A DNA stretch of 62,992 bases, the filler included, from Rhabdomonas costata (taxonomy: Eukaryota): NCBI GenBank assembly GCA_019059605.1. It is 53 parts of 53 records of this genome, joined end to end, with 100 filler letters (N's around TTAATTAATTAA, not from the genome) between each part and the next. Parts side by side here need not be neighbours in the genome. Positions count along the whole stretch, not along the records: positions 46,427 to 47,517 come from JAHMHO010029105.1; 52 more parts are not named here. One strand, 5' to 3'. Each line of letters starts with the position of its first letter. Positions within the stretch are counted from its first letter, which is position 1. A program made the translations under genes and the position numbers. Shown here piece after piece: positions 1,192 through 57,379 of this stretch. The notes below the pieces were generated by a model. That model made no database searches. It was not told where the DNA came from and saw only the letters and a list, made by a program, of their open reading frames with translations.

Positions 1192-2667
1192 TGCAGAAGC
1201 ATAGCCAATTCCAGAAGTAGGCTATGCTTCTGCACCAAACAAACAAAATATTGCAGGCTTACAAAAAAAGAAGGTGAGAGAAATCTGAGGGGGAATGCAA
1301 AATACTGACTGAAACGGGAAAGAGAACTGCGAGATGGGGACTGGTACCAGAACTGGTCAAGTACCAGAACAGGGCTGAAGCCCCACAGGAAGGAAAATTG
1401 GAAAATTGCCCGAAGCCCATCCGCCAGAGCTGCTCCCAGTGCTCGGCTGGCAGCTGCTGGCCAATGGGCGGTCGGGGAACCCCAAGAGCTGCCCTGACTA
1501 CGCCGCGAGAAACGCTGGGATGTGGGCCTCCGGAAGGTTCATCACGCGCACCCTCTGCGTGAAGTGATGAAGTAGAGTGCCATGTTTGTCCGAGGGCGAC
1601 GACGGGATGGCCACGGAGGACCCATGGGTAGGGGGTGGAAGGGGAAATCGAAGGGGTTCGGGTCGCTGTGAAAAGCTCATACCGATCGCGAAAAAGGTCC
1701 CTGCACAATTTTCAGTGGGAGGAGGGACCGAAAAACAAAAGCAGAAAGGAAGCAAAGCGTTGACCAAAGATGCTGCGAAACGAAGAAAAATCGCAGACTC
1801 CGGAAGAAAAGACAACACCCTTCGTCTTGTAGCGTTCGAGGAATATCTCGCACAACAAAGATTTGCCCCACAAGGGGGGGGGGTTCCGAAGAACGCTTAT
1901 CTGGCAATGTACATACAAAGCCAGAAAAAGTTTCTCAAGTTCAAGTGGGATATTCCCTTCCTCCAGATATCAAGGTGAAGATAAGTTCTGTCAGTAACGC
2001 ACCGTTAAAGCCTTCTGGCACGCTCTCAGACCAAAGTGGGCTTGCAAAATAAACAAGTCATGCAACAACATTCGTGCCTTTCAGCGGTCCACGTGAGTGG
2101 TGCGTGCAATCGATGAGATGTGAGCAATGCAAAAAGGGTGACCGGTGCGCAGAGCGGACACCTATGTACAGTAGGCAGCACAGAAAAATACCACTCCAAA
2201 AGAATGCGGATACGACGGCAGAAGCACTGCCTTCAGACGGTAGTGCCAGCAAACAAAATCGCTTCACGCACAATGCAAAAAACNNNNNNNNNNNNNNNNN
2301 NNNNNNNNNNNNNNNNNNNNNNNNNNNTTAATTAATTAANNNNNNNNNNNNNNNNNNNNNNNNNNNNNNNNNNNNNNNNNNNNCGAGCTCCGTGTGTTTG
2401 TCTGGGGTGTGGTGTGGCTTGGCGTGGTCTCTATTTTGCGTTTTGCCTCTCATCCACACATGCTGGGCTTGCTTTGACTTGATGTCGATTATGCTGTCAA
2501 AGCTATGTGTGTATATGTGTGTATGTATGTTCGACCTTACTGCTGAGCGAAGCTTTAATTTGGTGTGAAGCAAGTTAGGGGTTAAGGGTGGCGAGAAAAA
2601 TAGAAACTTGAAAGGGGCCCACGTTTCCGTGCGTCCATGGGTTTCCGGTTGCCCTTACGGGACACAG

Positions 2668-2790: not shown

Positions 2791-5203
2791 TCGTGGCAAC
2801 TGTTGGGTTGGCTGAGTGGCCGCTGAGTCTCAGAGCTGTACCTCCAATGACGGGGGGAGAAGGTTCTGGTCTAGCGCTGCTAACTCTTCTTCTGTGCGCC
2901 CTGCAACTGACGCCGTGGCTGCGCGGTCCGCTGCGGAAGTGTATTATAGGACTCCATACTGGATGGTCACAAGGATTGGTGTGCTCGTTCGCGGAATCCT
3001 TTGAGTCCCATTCCTTGCCGAGAACACAGCTGGTTCCAGAGTGTACCCCTCTTACAAAGGCATGAAAAGGGAGCTACAAGGACTCTGTTCGAAGCGAGGA
3101 TAACAGTAGAAATTATAAAGCAGTTTCGTTTTAACCGGAGGCGCTAGTGCAAGGGAAGGAAAGCGAAAGCCAGCTCACAGAGCATTTATGCCTCCTCAAT
3201 TGGGTGGGCTCACTAGTGCCCCATCCTTTTTGAGGTGGGGCGCTAGTGCATTTATGGCACCCCTCCCCCCCCAGTAAGGTGGGTCCACCTTATTTGAGCT
3301 GTGAACTAGTGGTTTTGTGGGCCCCTTACTGAGTATGCAGGGGGTTAGGTGTCGATGCACGGAACGTTCCCCGGATCACAATAGAAGCTTTGCAGGGGTT
3401 TAGTTGTGATCCGGGGAACGTTCCGTGCATCGACACCTAACCCCCTGCATACTCAGTAAGGGGCCCACACAACCNNNNNNNNNNNNNNNNNNNNNNNNNN
3501 NNNNNNNNNNNNNNNNNNTTAATTAATTAANNNNNNNNNNNNNNNNNNNNNNNNNNNNNNNNNNNNNNNNNNNNGGTGTTGGGTGAAACCATAGACATAG
3601 ACAAAATAAAATCTTCTACAATTATTTTATTTTGTCTATGTCTATGGTTTCATCCAACTTCATTACAACGTAGTTCAGTGATTTTGGCCTCATTCTATAA
3701 CGTTAATATGAAACTCACATGGTAGCACTTTGTGCATATGATACTTAGCCTTTAATATGTATGTGGTAGACTATTGCTAGGAGCCATGTATGTTTGCATT
3801 TACCCATTGCTAGCCTGGTTGAAGAAATACACTTATGAACTAAAAATATCACTTTTTATATGCAAAACCAAAATGAATGGAGACTGATTCTTTGTAATCC
3901 GTTTTTTGAAGCATTGTCAAGGAAACTCAATTGCAACGAATGAAAAAGAGTGTCACTTTACCATCAGTTTCCATATGTGCATTTTCTACTCATTCCAGAT
4001 CTACTTCTAAAATCTGGCAAAAAGAGCACGCATCGTGAGAATCACCTTCAAAATGTGCAAGTAATAAATGCGGATTTAATGAATGATAGATTTGATGAGA
4101 TATAACCTATCCTACTCTGTTCTCTTATCTTTTCATACCGGTAGTAGAATTTATGTTTATCTTTATTTTCTGAAAATAACCGTTGGCAAAAAAAACAGGA
4201 AATTGCTGTGAAATTGTTTCGCTTATCGTTGCAAGTCCTTAGACGTTTTTCTGCCCAAATGGAGTCAAACATGGACTGATGGAAAATCACATAAAGATGA
4301 CCAACTAATCCAACGTAAGTATGCGTGTAGTAGCACAAACCTTTACTGGTAAATAATTTCACACGTTGTAACCATGGCCGACTACCGCACCGTTGAAGGA
4401 TAAATGGCACCAAAGCGCCGAATGGAACCTAAGTAGTGCGGGAATCATTGGTTGCCTTTTGCGCTTGTTGCCTTTTCGTCCGCTTGGCAGCGCAGCGCGT
4501 GAAGGTGGTAACAACGGAAGATAGAATATGCGGTGGACCTGAGGCCAAAGAAAAAGAAAGGCCGCTGGGGGTTGGTGGAAAGCACACAATGGATGCTGAA
4601 AAAGCACATTCTTTGATAGGAACTACACGAAAAATTCCAGAGAGAAGCGGGTGGCACACAAAGTANNNNNNNNNNNNNNNNNNNNNNNNNNNNNNNNNNN
4701 NNNNNNNNNTTAATTAATTAANNNNNNNNNNNNNNNNNNNNNNNNNNNNNNNNNNNNNNNNNNNNGTGTGTTTATCCGTTCTTGTGGGGTCTTGATTTAG
4801 GGATTTTCAGCCATTTCTCGGCTCAGAATTCGTACTCTGTGGTTGCTTTTTATTTTGCAGCGGCGGCTTTTCTGTTCCTAGTGCCTAATTGAATGTCAAG
4901 GAATTTCACTTTTGATGTGAAGCGGGTTAGAGGGAGGGAGGGAGTGGAGAGCTAGAGCTATGGGGGTCCCAACGGGTTTGATCCTATGTGTGTGCACCGC
5001 GTGTGGGGTTGTCAGGAGGTAGTGGGCGGAGGCCCCTTGGCTAGCGCTCCAGTATGTTTGCCCTTTCCCATTATTGCGGGTGCGCTTCAAATGAGATGTA
5101 TTTGGTGAGCTATGGTGTTTGCGGTTTCGTGCGCCACTGGAGGTTTGTCTGGTTAGTCCGGATTGTGTCCTTTAACGTCTCTGTCTGGTTACTGTTTGCT
5201 CAG

Positions 5204-5850: not shown

Positions 5851-7717
5851 CCACACNNNNNNNNNNNNNNNNNNNNNNNNNNNNNNNNNNNNNNNNNNNN
5901 TTAATTAATTAANNNNNNNNNNNNNNNNNNNNNNNNNNNNNNNNNNNNNNNNNNNNTGTTTCCACGGGGTGCGGCCGGAGCGTGCGGCTGAGACGGGAGC
6001 GCGGCCTGCGGATGCCTTTAACGAATTTACATTGCATTATTGTTACCATTGGTAACCCCTGCCCCTCATCGTCGATTGCACCCCGTGGAAACTGCAAATC
6101 AAAATTGGATCTGAAGAGAGTGGGAGAGAAAGACGTTTTTATTGTGTAGTTGCAACCTCTTAACCGCCGTTGAATAGCAAAAGGATAACGCCAGGTCGCG
6201 AGGTTGTGGCCTCGGACCGGAACTTGATCCGCGGGTTTCACCACCACTGTAACCTGTAACTGGAGCGTTCTTGTCGAAGTTCTGTGTCTTGACTGTGTGG
6301 TTGGATGAGCGAATAAAGCGAATTGTTTTTGACACCTTAGTTTCTTGTTGCCCCGAATTTGATTTTTGGTTTACGGCGCGGTAATCTATCTTTTTCCGCA
6401 GCGTTCCTGTTCTGTCCTTTCCTTGCTTACACTCTGTGTGTTTCCCATTTTTGCCTATGGCAGACATTGAAAGAGGGAAACGGTTGTTTGAAGCCCGGGC
6501 TCTGCAGGTATGCACCCTTGAGCATCTTCTTCAGAATTGCCTGCCGCAAAGCTGCCCCAGAAAAGACGGACGGGCGAGCAGAAGATTCTACTGCAGACGA
6601 AGCTGAGAGGGACAGAACGTCGCAACGACGCCGCAAACAAAAGCTGTCAGCTATGGAGCATATAAAGTAATTTCTGGACCTCCAGGACAACCTTGAATCA
6701 TCAGCATACCCACCGCTCCTTCCCGCCGCGGGGCCCTCGGATTGTGCGTGACAAATGTTTAATGTTGTTCCTGTGCAGTGCCATTCCGTGAAGAAGGGCG
6801 AGCACCACATTGGACCTAGTCTGGTTGGAATAGTAGGCCGCCACGCCGCCTCCGCATCTGGCTACGAGTACTCCCCCGCCATGAAAGCCCAAGGTGTGTC
6901 GATGCCCTTCCCTCAGTGCAATAACTCATGTCCTTCATTTTCTGGGTCGAATTCGTTGGTGCAAGGGTATCTGCTCGTCCGCCACGTCCACACAACGGTC
7001 CAGGGAGGCCCCCCAAAACGTCAAATATGACCCAAAATGAGCCAAATNNNNNNNNNNNNNNNNNNNNNNNNNNNNNNNNNNNNNNNNNNNNTTAATTAAT
7101 TAANNNNNNNNNNNNNNNNNNNNNNNNNNNNNNNNNNNNNNNNNNNNGGTGGGTGGTGACATTGTTTCGCGTGGCTACCACTAGTGCAGTGTTACTGAGT
7201 GAACCATGCTGCTGCTACTTGGCACTTCAGTCTCCCTCTCTTGTGAGGGCCGGGGCTGAGTTGTTCCCTTCAGTCTGTACATGCCGGTGCCTTCGATGAC
7301 GACTTGGGAAGGGGGCGCAGTATCGTTGTGATTGAAAAGCGGTGCCTTGTTTTAGCATGTCTGAGGAAACTGGGAGCGGAGCTGTACGCTGGGACCAATC
7401 TGCAGCCTTTCTTTTTTGGTGAGCGTTCTTAGCGTCTTTTTTACATAAGCTTCACGAGTTTTTCCTCTATCCAGCCCTGAACCACAGTTGATAATGCGAG
7501 CGCAGGCTGAACAAGACAGGAACGTGTTGCTTTCGGGGCTTCTCCCTTTGAAAAGAGCATTAGCATTAGCATTTACCGGGTCTTTACATCCGGCAGGGTA
7601 ACTGTTACCTCTTCCGGTGTCCATCATTCCCCTGCATGTGATTTTGCTCTTTCGGATTCGTCGAAGGGAGTTGCGTTTTGGGACTACATCTGTGGTGAGT
7701 GAGGCTCCCTTAGCAAA

Positions 7718-7842
7718 ATGAGGGCCTGCCGCAGGCTGCTGACTACGATCTACCGCCGGGAGTCCTCCTACCTGGGCTTTGCCCCCGAGCAGGTCTACAG
7801 TGTGGTGGCGGACGTTGCGAACTATGGCAAATTCCTTCCCTG
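7718..7842 (+). CDS. COQ10: Coenzyme Q-binding protein COQ10 (START/polyketide cyclase family), first exon
   Basis: Short Arg-rich N-terminus, then LGFAPEQVYSVVADVANYGKFLPW matching the COQ10/RatA motif. GT donor at 7843. Confidence 0.8.
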
Positions 7843-8971
7843 GTCAGTGGGAGCCACCCCGCTCTCCTTCCTCACGTTCACGTTTTCGTCCCAGGTCAAG
7901 GGTGTTCAGGGTCCTGTTCAGGGTCCGAATAGCTCTCGCCTTTTTGCGTTGTGCACTCTGATGAATGAACTTGTAAATCACGTGTATCGTGCGCCCGTGC
8001 TGCGGAGATTCGAACGAAGAGTGGTTCAGAAATGCCACGAACCCATGGTGGAATTTGGGCAACTGCCTTGTTGTCCAGCACCAGTTCGGAAAAGGCTTGT
8101 TTCCAAAAGGTTCTTCCTTGCTGCCACTGTTTCCCGCATTGCGCCAGGGGGTGACCACTCAGCGCATTGTGCACGCATCCCGGGCGCACGATACACGTGA
8201 TTTACAAGTTCATTCATCAGAGTGCACAACCCAAAAAANNNNNNNNNNNNNNNNNNNNNNNNNNNNNNNNNNNNNNNNNNNNTTAATTAATTAANNNNNN
8301 NNNNNNNNNNNNNNNNNNNNNNNNNNNNNNNNNNNNNNGGGTTGTGGTGTCGTTCGGGGTTTGAGGGAGGGGAGCCTGACCTCTGGAAATGAGGACTCTT
8401 TTACAGGCTTACTCTGCTGAGGTCCGAAGAAGCAATGGAAAAATGGAGAGACGGGGTGTCCAAACTCCGGGAGCTGGATGCGCATTCGGTTGCTCAGTCA
8501 AACGTCTCCCATCTCTATTACCTTTTAGCTGAACACTGCTCTTTATCAAACGACCTTGTCGTTCATAATCCCATCCATGATCACAACAGATCATAAATTT
8601 TACTTTCAGAGTGGTTTTCATCCTATATTAGAGATAAGCCACAGGACAGAAGTGCTAAAAGCGTCCCAAGACCACCGCAACGTTCCAACATTGTTGCTCA
8701 TATCCATGAGTTCATTTGAGCAGAGGTTGTCGAAAATCGCCCCTCATTCAATTCAAAGGGGAGGAGGAGGAGGAAGGGGTAGAGGTATATCTCTGACTAC
8801 TGTAACGATGATCTCGGAAATATATTTTATAACTCCCCCTCCTCACATGCACCCTATCCCCGTGTCTCCAAATTGAGTTCCTGCAGAAATGCGTATTCCT
8901 AGGGAAACATAGTATGCCCTCCTGCGTTACCAGAGGTAGGGCACACATTCACAAGCCCGAGCCTGAACCAC

Positions 8972-9224
8972 GGCAACAACTGTACCGCCGCTGCCATCTC
9001 TGCGGAGCCCGAGTTCCTGCGCCACCCTCTCCAGCCAAGGCCACCGGTCCTCATCCGTGAGGGGAACCCCTGAGCTCATTTTCGCCCTGCTCTCCGCACT
9101 GTGCAAGGCATCAGAATCGGCGAAGCGATAGCCAAGGGAACGGGCCAGCAGCTCCCCTATCAAGCTCTTCCCAGCCCCTGAGACCCCCATGACTACAACC
9201 TGACTCACACTCCCGGTGGCCAGC
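8972..9224 (-). CDS. Gluconokinase (GntK/IdnK family) exon
   Basis: VVVMGVSGAGKS P-loop, DxDxLH, and KMSSGVPLTDEDRWPWL signature. Bounded by AG and a GT donor after VVA. Confidence 0.9.
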
Positions 9225-9608
9225 CTGAACACCGAAAGGGTACAGCCACAACCACTCAAGAAGAACCTACACGCTGCAATGACGACCAGAATCAGGGCCA
9301 CTGGGGCCTCTGGGCTCACAGGGTATCTCGCAGAAGGCTGACACACACCAATCCAACGAAGAAATGATAAATAAAAGCGCTGCTTTGAACCCAAGACCAA
9401 ATGCACTCCAAAATGGGTTTGCTCTTGGGNNNNNNNNNNNNNNNNNNNNNNNNNNNNNNNNNNNNNNNNNNNNTTAATTAATTAANNNNNNNNNNNNNNN
9501 NNNNNNNNNNNNNNNNNNNNNNNNNNNNNGTTTTTTTGTACCATTGATTTGGGTTAGGAACAGTGTATTGTCATGTTTGGGGTGATGCGCGTGTCTTTCC
9601 CACCACAG

Positions 9609-9713: not shown

Positions 9714-11276
9714 GTGTGTCCGCGCGCCATGTTTGTTCCATGGAAATGTTTCAGACGGACGAAGCGGCAATAAATTTCTTCTTTTTACGTTTACATCCAT
9801 ACCACCCTTCACTCTTGAGTCATATGGCTCTGGGTTGGCTCTCACAGTCTGTTTATCCCTTCCTGTTTTGTTCGTATCCCCTCATTAGGTTCGTCTGGCG
9901 GATGAGGGATTACGCACATCCACAAATACATAAAGACACCCGAGCAACCATGCAGTAGCCCTTTTCCAGCTGCTACCCGCACCCTTCGGCGTCATTCGCT
10001 CCGAAGGTGTACTTCTCGCGAGCACCCGTGGCCAACAGCGCGTGCGCCCGTCAGTCCACAGTGGTCACCTACAGTCAATCAGGCAACAGCCAGCGCCCAA
10101 CACACACAAATACCTGTAAATGAGCTGTTGATACACTGGGGGCGCTGCCAGTTTGCTTACATGTACCAGCACATCAGAGTGACTTACGTACTTCGCCTGT
10201 TTTGGCGGGCGACCCAAAGGGCCCCAAAAGGGGCAAAAACCTTTAGTTGTGCTAAATAGACTCGGCCGAAAGGTTAGCCTCAGTATGCAGGCATGCAAAG
10301 GTCCAGGAATTCATCCGCTGGCCGAAATTGGAATTGAGAAAAGTCGCAAAGGTCCAGCAAAAACAGGGCTGGCAAACTGTCAGTAAAGTCAAGTCAAGAG
10401 CACTACCATACCACAAAGTATGAGCACCGGCTAGCTCAAGTTATGATGCCCGTGCTCCTCCAGCTCCGGCTCCCGGTGTTCCTCTTCTTTCTGTCCTCAG
10501 CGGGAGCAGGCTGAATTTGTGGCTCTTCTGCTGGAGGTTCTCCCTGCGCAGGCTCTGCTTTTGGAGAACGACTCAGGGTCGCTCCCTTTGCATCTTGCCG
10601 TTGCGGTGCGCACCCCCACACNNNNNNNNNNNNNNNNNNNNNNNNNNNNNNNNNNNNNNNNNNNNTTAATTAATTAANNNNNNNNNNNNNNNNNNNNNNN
10701 NNNNNNNNNNNNNNNNNNNNNGGTGGTGGTTGCGGGTCAAGGGATCGACCTATATATGCTATATGCTCACGGATGGTTTCGCCCATTCATGTAACGCCAG
10801 ATAACGCTGGACAATCCTTCCCGTCGTCACTTGAATGGGCGAAACCATCCGTGAGCATATAGCATATATAGGTCGATCCCTTGACCCACAACCGCCATGC
10901 AACCGTCCTTCAGCGCGTGCACGCACTCACTCGCTCGCTCGCTCAGGGTCGCGTACCGTTATCCCGTGTTGGACAGCGTACGTCCGTTCCTCCTTTTGGC
11001 TCGCGTATAAATCCTTGGTGAGGGAAGTTGGAAATTTAGATATGTTTACTTTTTCTTCTGAAGGAGATCTTTACACCATCATCCCCTACCCTGCACGATG
11101 CAGACACTGAAGTGGGGCACATCTCCGCCACTTGCATCAGTTGGAGTCGCGGCTCCATCGGCTGCCACAGTCCGGCGATTTCCAAAGGGAGTTGCAGTGT
11201 ACTGCAGTGATTGTGCCTTCACATCAAAAGCAAGCACTGAGCACATCCTCCTCCTCCGTTGTGTTCTTATCTTCAG

Positions 11277-37799: not shown

Positions 37800-38502
37800 G
37801 TCAAAAAGAAAACAAAGAAAAAAAAAAGAGATGAATCCTGGGCACAATAGTAAAGTAACGCCAAAGGTTCACATCATTTCGAACCGCTGCGGGCACGCCG
37901 GATACGCAGAGGTCGCAGGAACCGCTGCACGCGGAACCGCTGCACGCGCGCCGGGGATTCAAACCCAGATGGCCTCCCATCCCCATCCCCAACACCNNNN
38001 NNNNNNNNNNNNNNNNNNNNNNNNNNNNNNNNNNNNNNNNTTAATTAATTAANNNNNNNNNNNNNNNNNNNNNNNNNNNNNNNNNNNNNNNNNNNNGTTT
38101 GTTGGGATTGGGGGGCAGCAGAAAACACCTCACTATGCAAGCCATGGCGGCATAGTTGCTTCAAATGCACAAGAAGCAACTATGCCGTCATGGCTTGCAT
38201 AGTGAGGTGTTTTCTGCTGCCCCCCAATCCCCGCAACTCGAAAAGTCCGACAGGATCGTCGAAAGGGTGCAACTTTTACGGTGGCATGACTTTTACGGTT
38301 TTACGGTGGCATGGCACCTTACACAAAATGACGTACATGGGTATTACCGTGCATCAGAATCTTAGTCGGAAAAGTCCAAATGTCACCCAACGGAAATCGA
38401 GCGTACAGGCAAAAGCGCAGCAGAGCTCTCGCTTGCTCCACGATGTTCCTAATCCCTCTGAGAAAATCAAAAACGCGAGGCGAGAATGGCGGTGGCGGAA
38501 CC

Positions 38503-46326: not shown

Positions 46327-46528
46327 NNNNNNNNNNNNNNNNNNNNNNNNNNNNNNNNNNNNNNNNNNNNTTAATTAATTAANNNNNNNNNNNNNNNNNN
46401 NNNNNNNNNNNNNNNNNNNNNNNNNNGTTTTTGTTGTAAAATAATTTAATGCATATACACATAATACAATATTTATCATTATTATGTGTATATGCATTAA
46501 ATTATTTTACAACAAAATATCAATGATT

Positions 46529-46565
46529 ATAATTAGCATCGATATTATATATCGATGGTAATAAT
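46529..46565 (-). terminator. Candidate Mimiviridae-type polyadenylation hairpin
   Basis: catcgatat-tat-atatcgatg forms a perfect 9-bp stem (46537-46557), extendable to about 15 pairs with two mismatches, about 50 nt downstream of the stop of the viral-like gene. Confidence 0.45.
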
Positions 46566-46615
46566 TAAAAAAAATTACTAAAACATGGTTTTATTTGTTA
46601 CGAATAAAAATCAAG

Positions 46616-47517
46616 TTATTTATGTTCAAATTGTTTAAAAATGAATCGTTCAGTATCTATAATTGGTGCACCTGTAGTATCTCTGAAATTGTGAATAAGA
46701 TTAATTTTTTTACCAGTGGGAATATAGCGAAATCTTTTTCTACGTTTATCTTTTTTTTGTTCATTTTTAAGAGATTCGATTAGCATATCATGAGTTTCAC
46801 CAATACATCTAATAATAAATTCTTGAAATATTGTTTTATCGAAAATTGTTTTTTCATATGTTTCTAAATACATTCTTCTAAAGACCAACAAATGATATAT
46901 TATAGTTGTAAATATGTCACATTTATCACGATTATATAATTTATAATATATAAAATTTGTTAATAAGAACAAAATATTAACACTAAAAGTTCCGACATTA
47001 ATAAAATCATCTTTTTTTATCTTAATGTTTGGAAATATATCAGGGATCATTTCGATTTTACAAACAGGAATACATTTATCTTTATGATCGTAAATATGTA
47101 AGATTTCAATATCTTTTAAAAAGAAGAAGACAGAACGTCCATGATATTGAAAAAAAGGGAAAAACTCACGAATGGAGATTTGATCTTGATATAATTCATT
47201 TAGTTTTGTAAAAATATTACGAACATCTTTTTTAAAATCGCTAGATATAAGTTGTATAGGTGCATTTTTAAATAATTTATATTTTTTGTCATTAATATTT
47301 GAATACAGTAAATATATGTTATAAACATAAAAACCAACTAAAATAACACTTTTTTTTGTTAATATAATCATAAATAGTTTGATAAACATTGGAAGGAATG
47401 ATTTGTTTTTCATAAAAATTAATATTTTTAACGTTGTAATGTTCGCCATAAATATGAAAATCTTTCGTTTTTTGAAGAATAAAAAATCTATTAAAATGTT
47501 TATTTAATCTCCAAAAC
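46616..47517 (-). CDS. Giant-virus (NCLDV, Mimiviridae-like) poly(A) polymerase catalytic subunit, C-terminal part, with one frameshift at 47350-47357
   Basis: Very AT-rich and intronless. Ordered motifs FWRL.K.F.RF..LQK, VGFYVYN, EFFPFFQYHG, IYD...KCIP, GTF, R..YL....KTIFD.TIFQEFII.CIGET recalled as characteristic of Mimiviridae poly(A) polymerases. Confidence 0.8.
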
Positions 47518-51048: not shown

Positions 51049-51300
51049 CTGCAGGTCAAAGGGGCAGTCCGACAGGGGAGGGGCGCGGTANNNNNNNNNN
51101 NNNNNNNNNNNNNNNNNNNNNNNNNNNNNNNNNNTTAATTAATTAANNNNNNNNNNNNNNNNNNNNNNNNNNNNNNNNNNNNNNNNNNNNTGTGGTGGGG
51201 GGGAGGAGCATATCCTCTTCCACCACGAAATGCTCCTCCCCCCCTACCAAACGCCGGTCTCCTCTCTGGCGAGGGGGTTCGAGTTGCGTTCACCTGCATC

Positions 51301-52270
51301 TCAGTGGGCGGTGAACATCACCGCTCTTGCTGGGACTGTGGCCGCCAAAGTTGGTGGTGCTGACACCGCAAACAATCCAGCACTCCGGCTCACAGTCGCT
51401 GAACTTGACCCCCCTCCGAACACATGTCGATGGGGCACATTTACCGATTCACCTTTATCTCCCGAAGTCAGAAACGCTGTGCTTCCAGAAAACGGTGTAT
51501 ATCCGTAACATATAGCATCTAAATCCATAGAAGAGCCACCAGCTGCGACAGTTCTGTGTAGCTGACCTTCCGGAACTGCCAATATAACTTGGGGCGGGGG
51601 TCTTGGTTTCCGAAAATACTCCCACGCTAATTCCATGACATCGTGCAGCGTCCGCGGGTGCTTGGACATCAATTTAGCTTGTATATCTCTTTCCAAGCCT
51701 CGAATGAACAAATACTGCTGCAACGGCTCGTTGTCAAACATCGTGCCATTTAGCAGGTTGATTCCCGTCACAAACTGCTGGTGGTAGAACTGGAAATTCC
51801 CGTCCGTCATCTTTAGCTGTTCCAGCCTCCACACTACGTTGTAATCCCAAGTCTGATGACACAGCCTTTTCTTTAGCGTTTCCACAAAATCTTTCCAGTC
51901 CACAAAGGTCTGGCCTGGCGCCACTATACCTTTTGCGAAGGAGCCGAGTGCTCCCGTGGCGTAAACTATAGCAACTTGATCTGGCAACCTCCGGACATCT
52001 TTTAGCTCTTCGACGCTAATCAACCAAGGCAAGAAATTGGCTGCGTTCCCGTCGTATTTTGGGAACTACGGGTCTTTTTCTTGAAGCTTCCGCAACACGC
52101 CTCCAATTGGGTCTGTCTGTCCAGCTGCCGCCGCTGGTGCTGGTGCAGAGGAACTGCTCGGCAATCCTGCAGTCACCCTCTGCAGTAACTCTTGCGTCAG
52201 CTGATGATTCGCACGCTGCTGTTGCTCCATCTGCTGGAAGAAGGACACCATCTATACCAAAAACGTGGCC
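51301..52270 (-). mobile_element. LTR retrotransposon gag (Ty3/gypsy-type capsid) with an in-frame TAG at 52066-52068
   Basis: Intronless. PKYDG...FLPWL, W.DF...LKKR, LEQLKM, YHQQF, FIRGL..DI, PRTLHDVMELA and MDLDAI are typical retrotransposon gag motifs. ORFs 52066-52251 and 51301-52032 share one frame. Confidence 0.85.
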
Positions 52271-55847: not shown

Positions 55848-56404
55848 CCACNNNNNNNNNNNNNNNNNNNNNNNNNNNNNNNNNNNNNNNNNNNNTTAAT
55901 TAATTAANNNNNNNNNNNNNNNNNNNNNNNNNNNNNNNNNNNNNNNNNNNNTTTGTTCCGGTGGACCTTATGCTGCGCGGTGCGTGAGCTGGAAGCCGTT
56001 TGTGTGTGGTCACCATTTGGTCACCACATAAAGAAGAAGGTCCAATATGGTTTTTTCGCACGGTGCTTCTTCCGGACCAAAAAATCCTCCAGCTGCTGGT
56101 TTAAACAATGTTACGAACAACAGGGTGTTCTCAGAAGGGTTTGAGTTGGTTAGAAGGAAACGAAAGCAGACATTTACTTTTCTGTGCTGTACTCGTGTTC
56201 TCCCAAACCACAGCTGTCCTTAAGGTTTCAAGTGAAGCTTCGGTGTCAGCAGATGTGGCTCTGCGACTGCAGCCAATACTTCCGTGAATGCTGGTGATCC
56301 GCGCCATCCGTCTCACTCACAGGCCGGTTATTTCCATTACTGTCAGAACATTACTCTCCCCTCCATCGCGTCGTCCACTCCGACACTCGCAGCGCGGCGC
56401 CAAA

Positions 56405-56721
56405 ATGAAGCCATCGCTTCTTTCTCTCCTGTTGTTCTTTGCGGCAAGCCACAGTGCCCACGCTCTGGTCCACCACCGCAGCCCCGTCGATGGCTTCCAC
56501 CCCGTTGCCCTTGAGGATAATGACGAGCTTCGGGTTGTGCTGCAGGCCAACCCCTCCACAGGGTACTCCTGGGAGGCTCACTTCAACGACAAGGTTCTGG
56601 CATTGAAGAGCTTGTCGTGCATCTACCCCAGCTCCTCGGGAAACATGGTGGGCCAGCCCTGTGAAATGGAGCTGTGGTTTGTCGGGTTGGCGGCACACCA
56701 GAAGGACAACATCACCTTGCG
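56405..56721 (+). CDS. Chagasin-family (I42) cysteine peptidase inhibitor with signal peptide, first exon
   Basis: Hydrophobic N-terminus, LQANPSTGYSW (NPxTGYxW loop) and GNMVGQP (xxVGxG-like loop). gtgtgc donor. Confidence 0.85.
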
Positions 56722-57379
56722 GTGTGCGTGTGCATCTCTACGTTTCAGGCAACGAAGAATTGGAGCGCTGCTTGCTTTCTCTCTTTTCGAGTTGCCCACG
56801 TCCAACCTGGAAACCTGACGGCCTCGGAGGGAGAAGGTGCACCACCGGCGCCGTTGTGGCAGGTGTGATTTACCGCAGCTGTGACATGGAAAAGCTGAGC
56901 GGGCATTATATGGATTTAAGAAGCAGAGAGGAGGGCAGCTAGAGAAGCGAAAATTCAGCGGTATAGCCGAAAATGGGTGCTCAAAAGCGGAGGCCCCAAT
57001 AACGCCCTGCCGGCACGCGGTTTAAACCGTCACACCACAACNNNNNNNNNNNNNNNNNNNNNNNNNNNNNNNNNNNNNNNNNNNNTTAATTAATTAANNN
57101 NNNNNNNNNNNNNNNNNNNNNNNNNNNNNNNNNNNNNNNNNGGTGTGGTTGCACGAGCTCGCGGAAGTTTTTTGTCGTCCATCTGATGTAAATCTCTTTT
57201 TTTTTGTTGTTGTAAAGGGAGGGGTTCTGATAGGTTTATCCGTGGGTTACTCCAGTCATCTTGGCAGGTGGCCACCATCACCGGAATTTCTTTCTTCCGA
57301 CACAACATCATGCATCATGTTAGCACGCGTGTGGCATGTATTGCGCCTGTTGTGTGCCTCCTTTGGCCCGATCTCGCAG

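What the first reader, a model, noticed from the sequence alone, without database searches (positions are those of the whole stretch)
46427..47517. Giant-virus-type poly(A) polymerase contig inside a probable euglenozoan single-cell assembly
Seen: this is the only extremely AT-rich contig (by eye about 20% GC, versus about 50% for host contigs). It is intronless and almost fully coding. Knowledge: its ordered motifs (FWRLxK, VGFYxYN, PFFQ, KCIP, KTIFD..FQEFI..CIGET) match my recollection of the Mimiviridae poly(A) polymerase, and Bodo saltans virus shows that euglenozoans can host such viruses. Inference: the amplified cell carried an infecting, ingested or endogenised giant virus. This could be a new virus-host pair, since I know of no characterised giant virus of euglenids.
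Basis: partly seen in the sequence, partly recalled or inferred. Interest (0 to 1): 0.75.

Follow-up and report, generated by a model that had tools for sequence, protein, structure and literature searches.

The report
Giant-virus poly(A) polymerase gene fragment
One very AT-rich 1.1-kb contig among GC-balanced eukaryote-like contigs carries the back two-thirds of a Mimivirus-type poly(A) polymerase gene, so giant-virus DNA was in the sample, but nothing here shows which cell the virus belongs to.

Summary
Contig 46427-47517 has 21.4% GC; the other 52 contigs have 38.6-58.1%. Its minus strand encodes the C-terminal ~300 residues of a Mimivirus-type viral poly(A) polymerase. Support: Pfam PF21649 at E 1.2e-26; PDB Mimivirus and Megavirus chains; AlphaFold model pLDDT 92 with TM 0.79/0.77 to 4wse/4p37, against 0.37 for vaccinia VP55.

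- The gene changes frame at an A8 run.
- The catalytic N-terminal domain lies beyond the contig end.
- The 38-bp perfect hairpin at the contig end belongs to a technical class. Six host-like contigs carry the same end fold-back. It is therefore not evidence for a Mimivirus terminator.

Relatives number 350 at E<=0.001 among 1.84 billion representatives, and the best alignment is 43% identical. They sit on AT-rich giant-virus contigs of up to 527 kb, next to TFIIS and RNase III genes. Asfarvirus-type polymerases match far worse. The fragment is therefore not of the Asfuvirales kind reported as endogenous elements in Euglena gracilis (PMC12455990).

Host identity and any virus-host link could not be tested. 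No genome is held and no read data were available. This is a new member of a known kind, of modest interest.

The parts
46427..47517 (.). AT-rich contig (1091 nt, 21.4% GC), bounded on both sides by N/TTAATTAATTAA linkers
47349..47516 (-). Poly(A) polymerase, first reading frame (56 aa, FWRLNK...INKKK). This is the end of catalytic domain D2 and the linker. It is open at the contig end, so the N-terminal ~190 aa are missing.
   Evidence: It aligns to residues 192-240 of the 491-aa relative P0001 (E 4e-5). It matches the family consensus SYWRxxKxFxRFxxLQK.
47350..47357 (-). A8 homopolymer at which the reading frame shifts by one base
   Evidence: The two frames are collinear on P0001 (192-240, then 236-486).
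46619..47350 (-). Poly(A) polymerase, second reading frame (244 aa, SVILVGF...FEHK). It holds the duplicated pseudo-nucleotidyltransferase domain D3 and the basic D4 tail.
   Evidence: PF21649 E 1.2e-26. PDB 4wse E 1.1e-13. Model pLDDT 92.1 with TM 0.79 to 4wse. D4-like tail pI 9.84.
46616..46618 (-). TAA stop codon. The C-terminus ends level with the closest relatives.
46537..46557 (-). Small hairpin (9-bp stem, 3-nt loop) 59-79 nt downstream of the stop. It is a weak candidate for a Mimiviridae-type terminator hairpin.
   Evidence: 3' region alone: z -2.08, 5 of 200 shuffles fold as well. Comparable stems occur downstream of relatives' genes.
46429..46517 (.). 38-bp perfect inverted repeat with a 13-nt loop, 2 nt from the contig end. 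Most likely an amplification or assembly fold-back; the outer arm 46429-46466 is the copy.
   Evidence: Six other contigs carry the same end structure.

Best explanation
The contig is a fragment of the poly(A) polymerase gene of an uncultured AT-rich giant virus of the Mimivirus order (Imitervirales).

What the intact protein does is taken from the Mimivirus and Megavirus enzymes in PMC4402537, not shown here. It is a homodimeric, self-processive enzyme that adds poly(A) tails to viral mRNAs in the cytoplasmic virus factory, after an RNase III-like enzyme cuts a 3' hairpin.

The contig holds only the non-catalytic part:
- the end of domain D2;
- the duplicated pseudo-nucleotidyltransferase domain D3;
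- the basic, RNA-binding D4 tail.
The dimerisation helix (D1) and the catalytic centre (D2) lie beyond the contig end.

I read the one-base frame change at an A8 run and the 38-bp palindrome at the contig end as products of whole-genome amplification or assembly. Neither needs a biological explanation.

The viral DNA was most likely amplified together with the eukaryote-like DNA. The cause could be an infection, an attached or ingested particle, or a co-sorted particle. Which of these applies, and whether the eukaryote is a euglenozoan, is not resolved.
For: Shown:
- GC 0.214 against 0.386-0.581 for the other 52 contigs. GC3 is 0.139.
- PF21649 E 1.2e-26, 93.8 bits against a cut-off of 27.
- PDB sequence matches to 4wse at 1.1e-13 and 4p37 at 1.4e-07.
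- AlphaFold model pLDDT 92.1, pTM 0.86. Foldseek top four chains are Mimivirus and Megavirus polyadenylate synthase at TMq 0.76-0.79. The next hit is at TMq 0.35, and vaccinia VP55 at 0.37.
- In BFVD the best hit is the Bodo saltans virus polymerase: TMq 0.81, 26% identity. ASFV and abalone asfa-like virus reach 0.47-0.52 at 12-18% identity.
- 350 relatives at E<=1e-3 among 1.84 billion representatives. All 8 of 8 top relatives carry PF19244 plus PF21649.
- The two frames are collinear on the relative P0001.
- Both cysteines of the D3-D4 disulfide described for Mg561 (PMC4402537) are kept. They sit in the KCIP and RCIGET motifs and are conserved across the family (C93 and C182 nearly invariant in 62 sequences).
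- IMG/VR holds 111 relatives, and 80 loci were kept. Their contigs reach 527 kb and many are named GVMAG. Their GC is 0.167-0.355, median 0.245.
- Of the 149 nearest-neighbour ORFs in those loci, 37 are TFIIS and 22 are RNase III. The RNase III neighbours match the Mimivirus R341-R343 cluster (PMC4402537).
- A ~995-aa MutS_V ORF is present in 2 of 4 searched records that hold relatives from the same 41-row clade. MutS7 is described as the Mimiviridae signature (PMC6163669).
- Only 1 relative appeared in a scan of the prokaryote genome collection (one genome per species, 185,579 by the tool's description). It lies on a 2.1-kb contig of a MAG.
- Fold-back artefact: all 7 of 7 perfect hairpins with stem >=15 in the window lie within 12 nt of a contig end, and 6 of them are on host-like contigs.
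Against: - The frame change could be real, meaning a pseudogene or an endogenous copy.
- Three of five near-invariant residues of the family's NxSGN motif in the D4 tail are replaced, giving D-T-T-G-A. That would fit relaxed constraint.
- The palindrome ends 2 nt before the contig end and those 2 nt do not match. A native long hairpin is therefore not excluded. Perfect stems up to 33 bp occur in relatives' genomes: 14 stems of >=20 bp in 1.30 Mb.
- The order-level assignment rests on relatives at <=43% identity and on unnamed metagenomic contigs. No tree with named reference viruses could be built.
- Nothing in the window links the contig to the other contigs.
Confidence: 0.8

Rival explanations
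1. The contig is part of a giant endogenous viral element integrated in the eukaryote's nuclear genome, and the polymerase gene is decaying.
For: - A frame change inside the gene.
- Substitutions at the near-invariant NxSGN motif.
- Endogenous giant-virus elements exist in a euglenid, Euglena gracilis (PMC12455990).
- A Ty3-type retroelement capsid on another contig shows a repeat-bearing eukaryotic genome.
Against: - There is no host-like flank or composition change within the 1.09 kb.
- GC is 21.4% and GC3 13.9%, with no sign of amelioration.
- There is only one lesion, and it sits in a homopolymer. The family's invariant residues E, G, P, G and both near-invariant disulfide cysteines are kept. 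The C-terminus ends where relatives end.
- The known Euglena elements are Asfuvirales at 25-35% GC. This gene matches asfarvirus polymerases poorly: TMq 0.47-0.52, 12-18% identity.
Confidence: 0.15
2. The viral DNA has nothing to do with the sorted cell. It could be a free or prey-associated virion from the water, cross-well or index carry-over, or a reagent contaminant amplified alongside.
For: - It is a single 1.1-kb viral contig among 53 in the window.
- Relatives of this gene are common in environmental assemblies: 111 in IMG/VR and 33 loci in JGI metagenomes.
- Whole-genome amplification picks up trace DNA (general knowledge).
Against: - No protein more than 43% identical was found among the 150 best hits of 1.84 billion cluster representatives, nor in the word-index search of 5.8 billion clusters with a family profile. 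It is therefore not a widespread recurrent contaminant.
- The contig carries the same end fold-back as host-like contigs. This suggests it went through the same amplification and assembly.
Confidence: 0.25
3. The gene is cellular. It would belong to an AT-rich bacterium, organelle or protist, not to a virus.
For: One relative lies on a contig binned into a bacterial MAG.
Against: - That contig is only 2,150 nt, and it is the only relative found in a scan of the prokaryote genome collection (one genome per species, 185,579 by the tool's description).
- All 80 of 80 IMG/VR loci are AT-rich viral contigs. Their neighbours include TFIIS and RNase III, and their contigs reach 527 kb.
- The best solved and predicted structures are all giant-virus enzymes.
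Confidence: 0.03

Closest known systems
Mimivirus R341 and Megavirus chilensis Mg561 poly(A) polymerases (PDB 4wse, 4p37; PMC4402537)
   Same: - The D3 (pseudo-nucleotidyltransferase) and D4 architecture: TMq 0.79 and 0.77.
- Sequence match over ~185 residues.
- Both disulfide cysteines are kept, and the D4-like tail is basic at pI 9.84.
- The FWRLNKHFNR stretch has the R-x2-K-x3-R spacing of the R189-K192-R196 tunnel-lining residues the paper describes. This is my pattern comparison, not an alignment to the structure.
   Different: - Only 22-25% identical in the structural alignment.
- D1 and the catalytic part of D2 are not on the contig.
- The frame breaks at an A8 run.
- It lacks the 12-residue D3 insertion and the acidic D5 extension of R341. 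The protein ends ~60 residues after the second cysteine (PMC4402537).
- The NxSGN motif is altered.
Unnamed metagenomic clade P0170/P0168/P0001/P0169/P0174/P0002 (Logan/ENA assemblies; P0170 on a 490-kb contig)
   Same: - It groups with the query at SH-aLRT 100 in a 131-row tree.
- The C-terminus is the same, and 34 columns are invariant across the seven sequences.
   Different: - At most 43% identity over 233 columns.
- These proteins are full length (461-545 aa) with both Pfam domains.
- Their genomic context could not be fetched.
Bodo saltans virus putative poly(A) polymerase (UniProt A0A2H4UUV8), from the only isolated giant virus of a euglenozoan
   Same: It is the best structural match in BFVD: E 5.7e-17, TMq 0.81.
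   Different: - Only 26% identical, no closer than Mimivirus at 24-25%.
- BFVD holds cluster representatives. Ranking first is therefore no evidence of a special relationship to BsV or of a shared host group.
Asfuvirales polymerases (ASFV, abalone asfa-like virus) and the Asfuvirales endogenous elements of Euglena gracilis (PMC12455990)
   Same: They share the general viral poly(A) polymerase fold, and both cases are low-GC DNA set against a GC-balanced host.
   Different: - TMq is only 0.47-0.52 at 12-18% identity.
- The Euglena elements have 25-35% GC, against 21.4% here.
- PMC4402537 states that sequence similarity in D3/D4 is confined to mimiviruses and CroV.
Mimiviridae 'hairpin rule' terminators (PMC4402537; PMC6163669)
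   Same: A palindrome lies downstream of the stop codon, in an AT-rich 3' region.
   Different: - The 38-bp palindrome sits 2 nt from the contig end, and six host-like contigs have equivalent end fold-backs.
- In 78 relatives the longest perfect stem within 250 nt downstream is 17 bp.
- Only the 9-bp hairpin at 46537-46557 remains as a weak candidate.

Membership tests
Mimivirus-type viral poly(A) polymerase (PF19244 + PF21649; R341/Mg561) | C-terminal D3-D4 region recognisable by sequence (PF21649) | tested here: met
   E 1.2e-26, 93.8 bits against a cut-off of 27, profile positions 21-260 of 294. PDB 4wse E 1.1e-13.
Mimivirus-type viral poly(A) polymerase (PF19244 + PF21649; R341/Mg561) | D3-D4 fold as in the crystal structures | tested here: met
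   Model pLDDT 92.1. TMq 0.79 to 4wse and 0.77 to 4p37. The next unrelated hit is at 0.35.
Mimivirus-type viral poly(A) polymerase (PF19244 + PF21649; R341/Mg561) | Conserved cysteine pair forming the D3-D4 disulfide (C350-C426 of Mg561) | tested here: met
   The KCIP and RCIGET cysteines align to the two cysteines in 4wse and 4p37 (numbering by my count against PMC4402537). They are nearly invariant in 62 sequences. Disulfide formation itself was not tested.
Mimivirus-type viral poly(A) polymerase (PF19244 + PF21649; R341/Mg561) | Strongly basic D4 domain (paper: pI >10) | tested here: inconclusive
   The tail from the second cysteine to the end has pI 9.84. Six clade relatives have 9.92-10.11. 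My domain boundary is approximate.
Mimivirus-type viral poly(A) polymerase (PF19244 + PF21649; R341/Mg561) | Catalytic nucleotidyltransferase signature hG[G/S]x23Dh[D/E]h in D2 (PF19244) | not testable with these tools
   That part of the gene lies beyond the contig end at 47517. No whole genome is held.
Mimivirus-type viral poly(A) polymerase (PF19244 + PF21649; R341/Mg561) | N-terminal dimerisation helix D1 | not testable with these tools
   It lies off the contig.
Mimivirus-type viral poly(A) polymerase (PF19244 + PF21649; R341/Mg561) | Uninterrupted reading frame | tested here: not met
   The frame changes by one base at the A8 run 47350-47357. All 80 of 80 IMG/VR relatives have an ORF of >=420 aa.
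Mimivirus-type viral poly(A) polymerase (PF19244 + PF21649; R341/Mg561) | Near-invariant NxSGN motif in the C-terminal tail | tested here: not met
   The query has D-T-T-G-A. N, S and N are each >=90% conserved in 26 and in 62 sequences.
Imitervirales (Mimiviridae in the broad sense) genome | AT-rich composition like the genomes that carry this gene | tested here: met
   0.214 here. The 80 related loci range 0.167-0.355, median 0.245.
Imitervirales (Mimiviridae in the broad sense) genome | Polymerase next to RNase III, as in the R341-R343 cluster. The TFIIS neighbour is my recollection for Mimivirus. | not testable with these tools
   The contig has no neighbouring gene. In relatives, TFIIS accounts for 37 and RNase III for 22 of 149 nearest ORFs.
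Imitervirales (Mimiviridae in the broad sense) genome | MutS7 and hallmark genes (MCP, PolB, A32, VLTF3) in the same genome | not testable with these tools
   No assembly is held. A MutS_V ORF of 992 or 998 aa occurs in 2 of 4 records that hold relatives. It was not shown to be the MutS7 subtype.
Imitervirales (Mimiviridae in the broad sense) genome | AAAATTGA early promoter upstream of genes | not testable with these tools
   The 5' end of the gene and its upstream region are off the contig.
Imitervirales (Mimiviridae in the broad sense) genome | Hairpin-forming terminator downstream of the gene | tested here: inconclusive
   The 38-bp palindrome is of the end fold-back class. The remaining 3' region folds at z -2.08.
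Asfuvirales (including the Euglena gracilis endogenous elements) | Polymerase most similar to asfarvirus enzymes | tested here: not met
   ASFV and abalone asfa-like virus give TMq 0.47-0.52 at 12-18% identity. BsV, Mimivirus and Megavirus give 0.77-0.81 at 22-26%.

The most novel reading that the evidence does not exclude
The contig could be the first trace of an Imitervirales virus that infects, or has recently integrated into, a euglenozoan other than Bodo saltans. Its lineage would have a polymerase at most 43% identical to any relative the searches of the ~15-billion-protein collection returned. Euglenozoans would then host giant viruses of two orders: Imitervirales, and the Asfuvirales seen as endogenous elements in Euglena gracilis.
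Probability: 0.15. Interest if true: 0.6.

Novelty: new member of a known kind. Interest (0 to 1): 0.3.

Why it matters
Only one giant virus of a member of Discoba has been isolated (Bodo saltans virus). Euglenids have so far yielded only eroded Asfuvirales insertions (PMC12455990). A demonstrated Mimivirus-order virus tied to another euglenozoan cell would widen the known host range. It would also give a handle on viruses of a large, poorly sampled protist group.

As it stands, the window gives a 1.1-kb fragment of a gene family that is abundant in environmental giant-virus assemblies, with no link to any host. Its value is as a pointer to re-examine the full assembly.

A practical point also follows. 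Seven of the 53 contigs end in fold-back palindromes. Hairpins at contig ends in this assembly should therefore not be read as biology.

Tried and rejected
- **Hairpin rule.** I first read the 38-bp perfect hairpin (whole 3' region including it: MFE -60.6 kcal/mol, z -10.7) as a Mimivirus-type polyadenylation hairpin. I rejected this after a control over all 53 contigs. Every perfect hairpin with stem >=15 (7 of 7) lies within 12 nt of a contig end, and six are on GC-balanced contigs. Downstream hairpins in 78 relatives never exceed 17 bp.
- **Whole-genome binning of low-GC contigs.** Not possible, because no genome is held.
- **Searches with the single protein.** The word-index search for longer proteins found nothing. 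The IMG/VR pattern scan found nothing. Profile-based searches then succeeded.
- **Organism names for relatives.** Cluster look-up and the profile search gave only 'hypothetical protein' or no name. No tree with named Mimivirus, Klosneuvirus or BsV references could be built. Supplementary tables that classify GVMAG bins are closed.
- **JGI metagenome scan for closer relatives.** 33 loci were found, with a best identity of 36-37%.
- **Host identity.**
  - Rfam found nothing in the window.
  - Tandem Repeats Finder reported no arrays in the window at score >=80.
  - Pfam hit 4 of 34 longest ORFs: Ty3 capsid, chagasin-family inhibitor, P-loop kinase, START-like. None is diagnostic.
  - The protein-atlas look-up of the chagasin-like ORF returned only bacterial clusters below the 0.9 score.
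- **Other viral contigs in the window.** The four next-lowest-GC contigs (38.6-44.0%) gave no Pfam hit.
- **Wrong frame in the first tree.** The tree used the wrong frame of the query through my slip. It was discarded and redone.
- **Byrne et al. 2009 (hairpin rule).** The paper is not held. The rule is cited from PMC4402537 and PMC6163669 instead.
Full report
**What the window is.** The 62,992 bases are 53 separate contigs of 1074-1092 nt, joined by runs of N around a TTAATTAATTAA linker. The finding is one whole contig, 46427-47517. Its GC content is 0.214. The other 52 contigs range from 0.386 to 0.581.

**The gene.**
- On the minus strand one frame is open from the contig end: 47516 down to 47349, 56 residues beginning FWRLNK.
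- A second frame, shifted by one base, runs from the A8 run at 47350-47357 to a TAA stop at 46616-46618.
- The first piece aligns to residues 192-240 of the 491-residue relative P0001 (E 4e-5). The second aligns to residues 236-486 (E 1e-55).
- This is therefore one gene with a one-base frame change in a homopolymer.
- The gene continues beyond the contig end. About 190 N-terminal residues are missing.

**Identity.**
- The second piece matches Pfam PF21649, the C-terminal domain of the Mimivirus poly(A) polymerase, at E 1.2e-26 and 93.8 bits against a cut-off of 27.
- It matches two PDB chains by sequence: 4wse at E 1.1e-13 and 4p37 at 1.4e-07.
- An AlphaFold model built from a 62-sequence alignment has mean pLDDT 92.1 and pTM 0.86.
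- Foldseek against the PDB puts the Mimivirus (4wse) and Megavirus (4p37) polyadenylate synthases first, at TMq 0.76-0.79 and E 1.8e-14 to 5.7e-11. The next hit is at TMq 0.35, and vaccinia VP55 at 0.37.
- Against predicted viral structures the first hit is the Bodo saltans virus enzyme at TMq 0.81 and 26% identity. African swine fever virus and abalone asfa-like virus reach only 0.47-0.52 at 12-18% identity.
- BFVD holds cluster representatives, and the identity to BsV is no higher than to Mimivirus. The BsV hit therefore says nothing about a shared host group.

**What part of the enzyme this is.** I read the abstract and passages of PMC4402537. The Mimivirus and Megavirus enzymes are homodimeric and self-processive, with four domains:
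- D1 is an N-terminal dimerisation helix.
- D2 is the catalytic nucleotidyltransferase domain.
- D3 is a duplicated, non-catalytic copy of that fold.
- D4 is a basic tail proposed to bind RNA, tied to D3 by a disulfide (C350-C426 in Mg561).

The contig carries the end of D2, then D3 and D4.
- Its two cysteines, in KCIP and RCIGET, align with the disulfide pair (my residue count). They are conserved across the family.
- The tail has pI 9.84, against 9.92-10.11 in six close relatives.
- The first-frame stretch FWRLNKHFNRFFILQK fits the family consensus SYWRxxKxFxRFxxLQK.
- The catalytic signature and D1 cannot be examined.
- One deviation stands out. In the family's near-invariant NxSGN motif the contig has D-T-T-G-A.

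**Relatives and their context.**
- HMMER against 1.84 billion cluster representatives found 350 proteins at E<=1e-3 and 194 at <=1e-10. The best was 3.8e-44 at 38% identity.
- All 8 of 8 top hits carry both PF19244 and PF21649.
- A profile scan of IMG/VR confirmed 111 relatives. Eighty loci were kept, on contigs of up to 527 kb, many named GVMAG.
- These loci have 16.7-35.5% GC, median 24.5%. All 80 hold a polymerase ORF of at least 420 residues.
- I took the nearest ORF of >=120 aa on each side of the gene, 149 ORFs in all. Of these, 37 carry a TFIIS zinc ribbon and 22 carry RNase III domains.
- PMC4402537 describes the polymerase / unknown / RNase III cluster R341-R343 in Mimivirus. That TFIIS lies nearby in Mimivirus is my recollection.
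- In an IQ-TREE quick tree of 131 rows, the query sits in a 7-row clade with SH-aLRT 100. The other members are P0170, P0168, P0001, P0169, P0174 and P0002, all from Logan or ENA assemblies. P0170 lies on a 490-kb contig. The highest identity is 43% over 233 columns.
- That clade lies within a 41-row set (support 98) that includes IMG/VR loci.
- Of four records behind such loci that could be searched, the two large bins (951 kb and 584 kb) each hold a MutS_V ORF of about 995 residues.
- PMC6163669 calls MutS7 the one protein unique to, and universal in, Mimiviridae. I did not show that these ORFs are of the MutS7 subtype.
- A scan of JGI metagenome contigs found 33 more relatives, none above 36-37% identity.
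- A scan of the prokaryote genome collection (one genome per species, 185,579 by the tool's description) found one relative. It lies on a 2,150-nt contig binned into a MAG.
- PMC4402537 also states that D3/D4 sequence similarity is confined to mimiviruses and CroV, and that other NCLDV polymerases share only D2.

Together these results support an origin in an Imitervirales-type giant virus. They argue against a cellular gene and against an Asfuvirales gene.

**The hairpin: a reading I dropped.**
- Downstream of the stop there is a 38-bp perfect inverted repeat with a 13-nt loop, at 46429-46517. The 3' region that contains it folds at -60.6 kcal/mol, z -10.7.
- This looked like the Mimiviridae hairpin rule (PMC4402537; PMC6163669).
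- Two controls speak against that reading.
  - In 78 relatives the longest perfect stem within 250 nt downstream of the gene is 17 bp. Stems of >=12 bp occur in 11 of 78 downstream, against 2 of 78 inside the coding end.
  - In the window, 7 of 53 contigs have a perfect hairpin with stem >=15: 15, 66, 29, 56, 43, 38 and 15 bp. All seven lie within 12 nt of a contig end. Six are on GC-balanced contigs, and in several the repeat runs on to the contig end with a few mismatches. The other 46 contigs have stems of 6-13 bp.
- This is the signature of inverted chimeras from multiple displacement amplification, or of assembly fold-backs (general knowledge, recalled).
- I therefore treat 46427-46466 as a probable artefact.
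- The case is not closed. The last 2 nt do not match. Perfect stems up to 33 bp occur in the 1.30 Mb of related viral DNA, where there are 258 stems of >=12 bp and 14 of >=20 bp.
- Without the palindrome, the 3' region folds at z -2.08, and 5 of 200 shuffles fold as well. It holds a 9-bp hairpin at 46537-46557, which is only a weak terminator candidate.

**The frame change.**
- It sits in an A8 run, and it is the only lesion in about 300 codons.
- The family's invariant residues and the native C-terminus are kept.
- In an assembly that shows amplification artefacts, a homopolymer miscount is the simplest reading.
- A real, recent mutation cannot be excluded without reads. The altered NxSGN motif keeps that option open.

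**Host and link to the host.** Nothing in the window bears on this beyond the following.
- The contig has no GC-balanced flank.
- Rfam found no RNA gene in the window.
- Of the longest ORFs of 34 of the 52 other contigs, 4 hit Pfam: Ty3 capsid, a chagasin-family inhibitor, a P-loop kinase fragment and a START-like domain. This fits a gene-sparse eukaryotic genome but not specifically a euglenozoan one.
- An atlas look-up of the chagasin-like ORF was uninformative.
- The four next-lowest-GC contigs gave no hit. In total 34 of the other 52 contigs were examined, and none looked viral.
- No whole genome is held.

**Literature.**
- PMC12455990 (abstract and passages) reports eight endogenous giant-virus elements in Euglena gracilis. 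They belong to Asfuvirales and have 25-35% GC. The paper states that BsV is the only giant virus isolated from Discoba.
- PMC8061765 (passages) says that viruses of euglenids, diplonemids and symbiontids have not been verified experimentally.
- My searches were 'giant virus' + 'euglenid' (17 papers) and 'Nucleocytoviricota' + 'Euglenozoa' + 'single-cell' (4 papers). Their listings show no isolated euglenid giant virus and no Imitervirales sequence tied to a euglenid. I did not read those papers beyond the ones named.
Tables that classify GVMAG bins might have named the relatives.

**Verdict.**
- The fragment is non-catalytic, frame-broken and ends in a probable artefact.
- It belongs to a divergent but ordinary branch of a gene family that is abundant in environmental giant-virus assemblies.
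- The interesting claim, a new virus-host pair in Euglenozoa, is neither supported nor refuted by anything that could be run here.

Noticed in passing
window 1192-1234, 3316-3469, 3584-3652, 10734-10887, 38104-38231, 51197-51244: Six GC-balanced contigs end in perfect fold-back palindromes, with stems of 15, 66, 29, 56, 43 and 15 bp, all within 12 nt of a contig end. This is most likely a signature of amplification chimeras or assembly fold-backs. Hairpins at contig ends in this assembly should not be read as biology.
   Followed up: yes
window 51304-52065 (-): An ORF with a Ty3 transposon capsid-like domain (PF19259, E 9.6e-08). It points to an LTR retroelement, and so to a eukaryotic source for the GC-balanced contigs.
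   Followed up: no
window 56288-56815 (+): An ORF with a chagasin-family peptidase inhibitor I42 domain (PF09394, E 5.9e-08). The atlas look-up gave only bacterial clusters below the 0.9 score. This does not tell whether the contig is eukaryotic or bacterial.
   Followed up: partly
window 8930-9427 (-) and 7703-8197 (+): A fragment of a P-loop kinase (shikimate/cytidylate kinase-like, E 1.5e-06) and a START/polyketide-cyclase-like domain (E 1.3e-05). Together with the Ty3 capsid and chagasin hits, these were the only Pfam hits among 34 longest ORFs of the other contigs.
   Followed up: no
L001-L080 (IMG/VR loci), around position 10001 in most: Synteny around the polymerase recurs across many uncultured giant-virus contigs. 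The upstream neighbour is often a divergently oriented TFIIS zinc-ribbon gene (37 of 149 nearest ORFs). The downstream neighbour is often RNase III with a dsRNA-binding motif (22 and 15 of 149).
   Followed up: partly
L114:883-1695: A relative of the polymerase lies on a 2,150-nt contig binned into a bacterial MAG. This is probably a mis-binned giant-virus contig.
   Followed up: no
window 46640-46670 (-), protein tail ...NFRDTTGAPIID...: The family's near-invariant NxSGN motif reads D-T-T-G-A in this contig. This could be lineage-specific change or relaxed constraint. Its role in the solved structures was not examined.
   Followed up: partly
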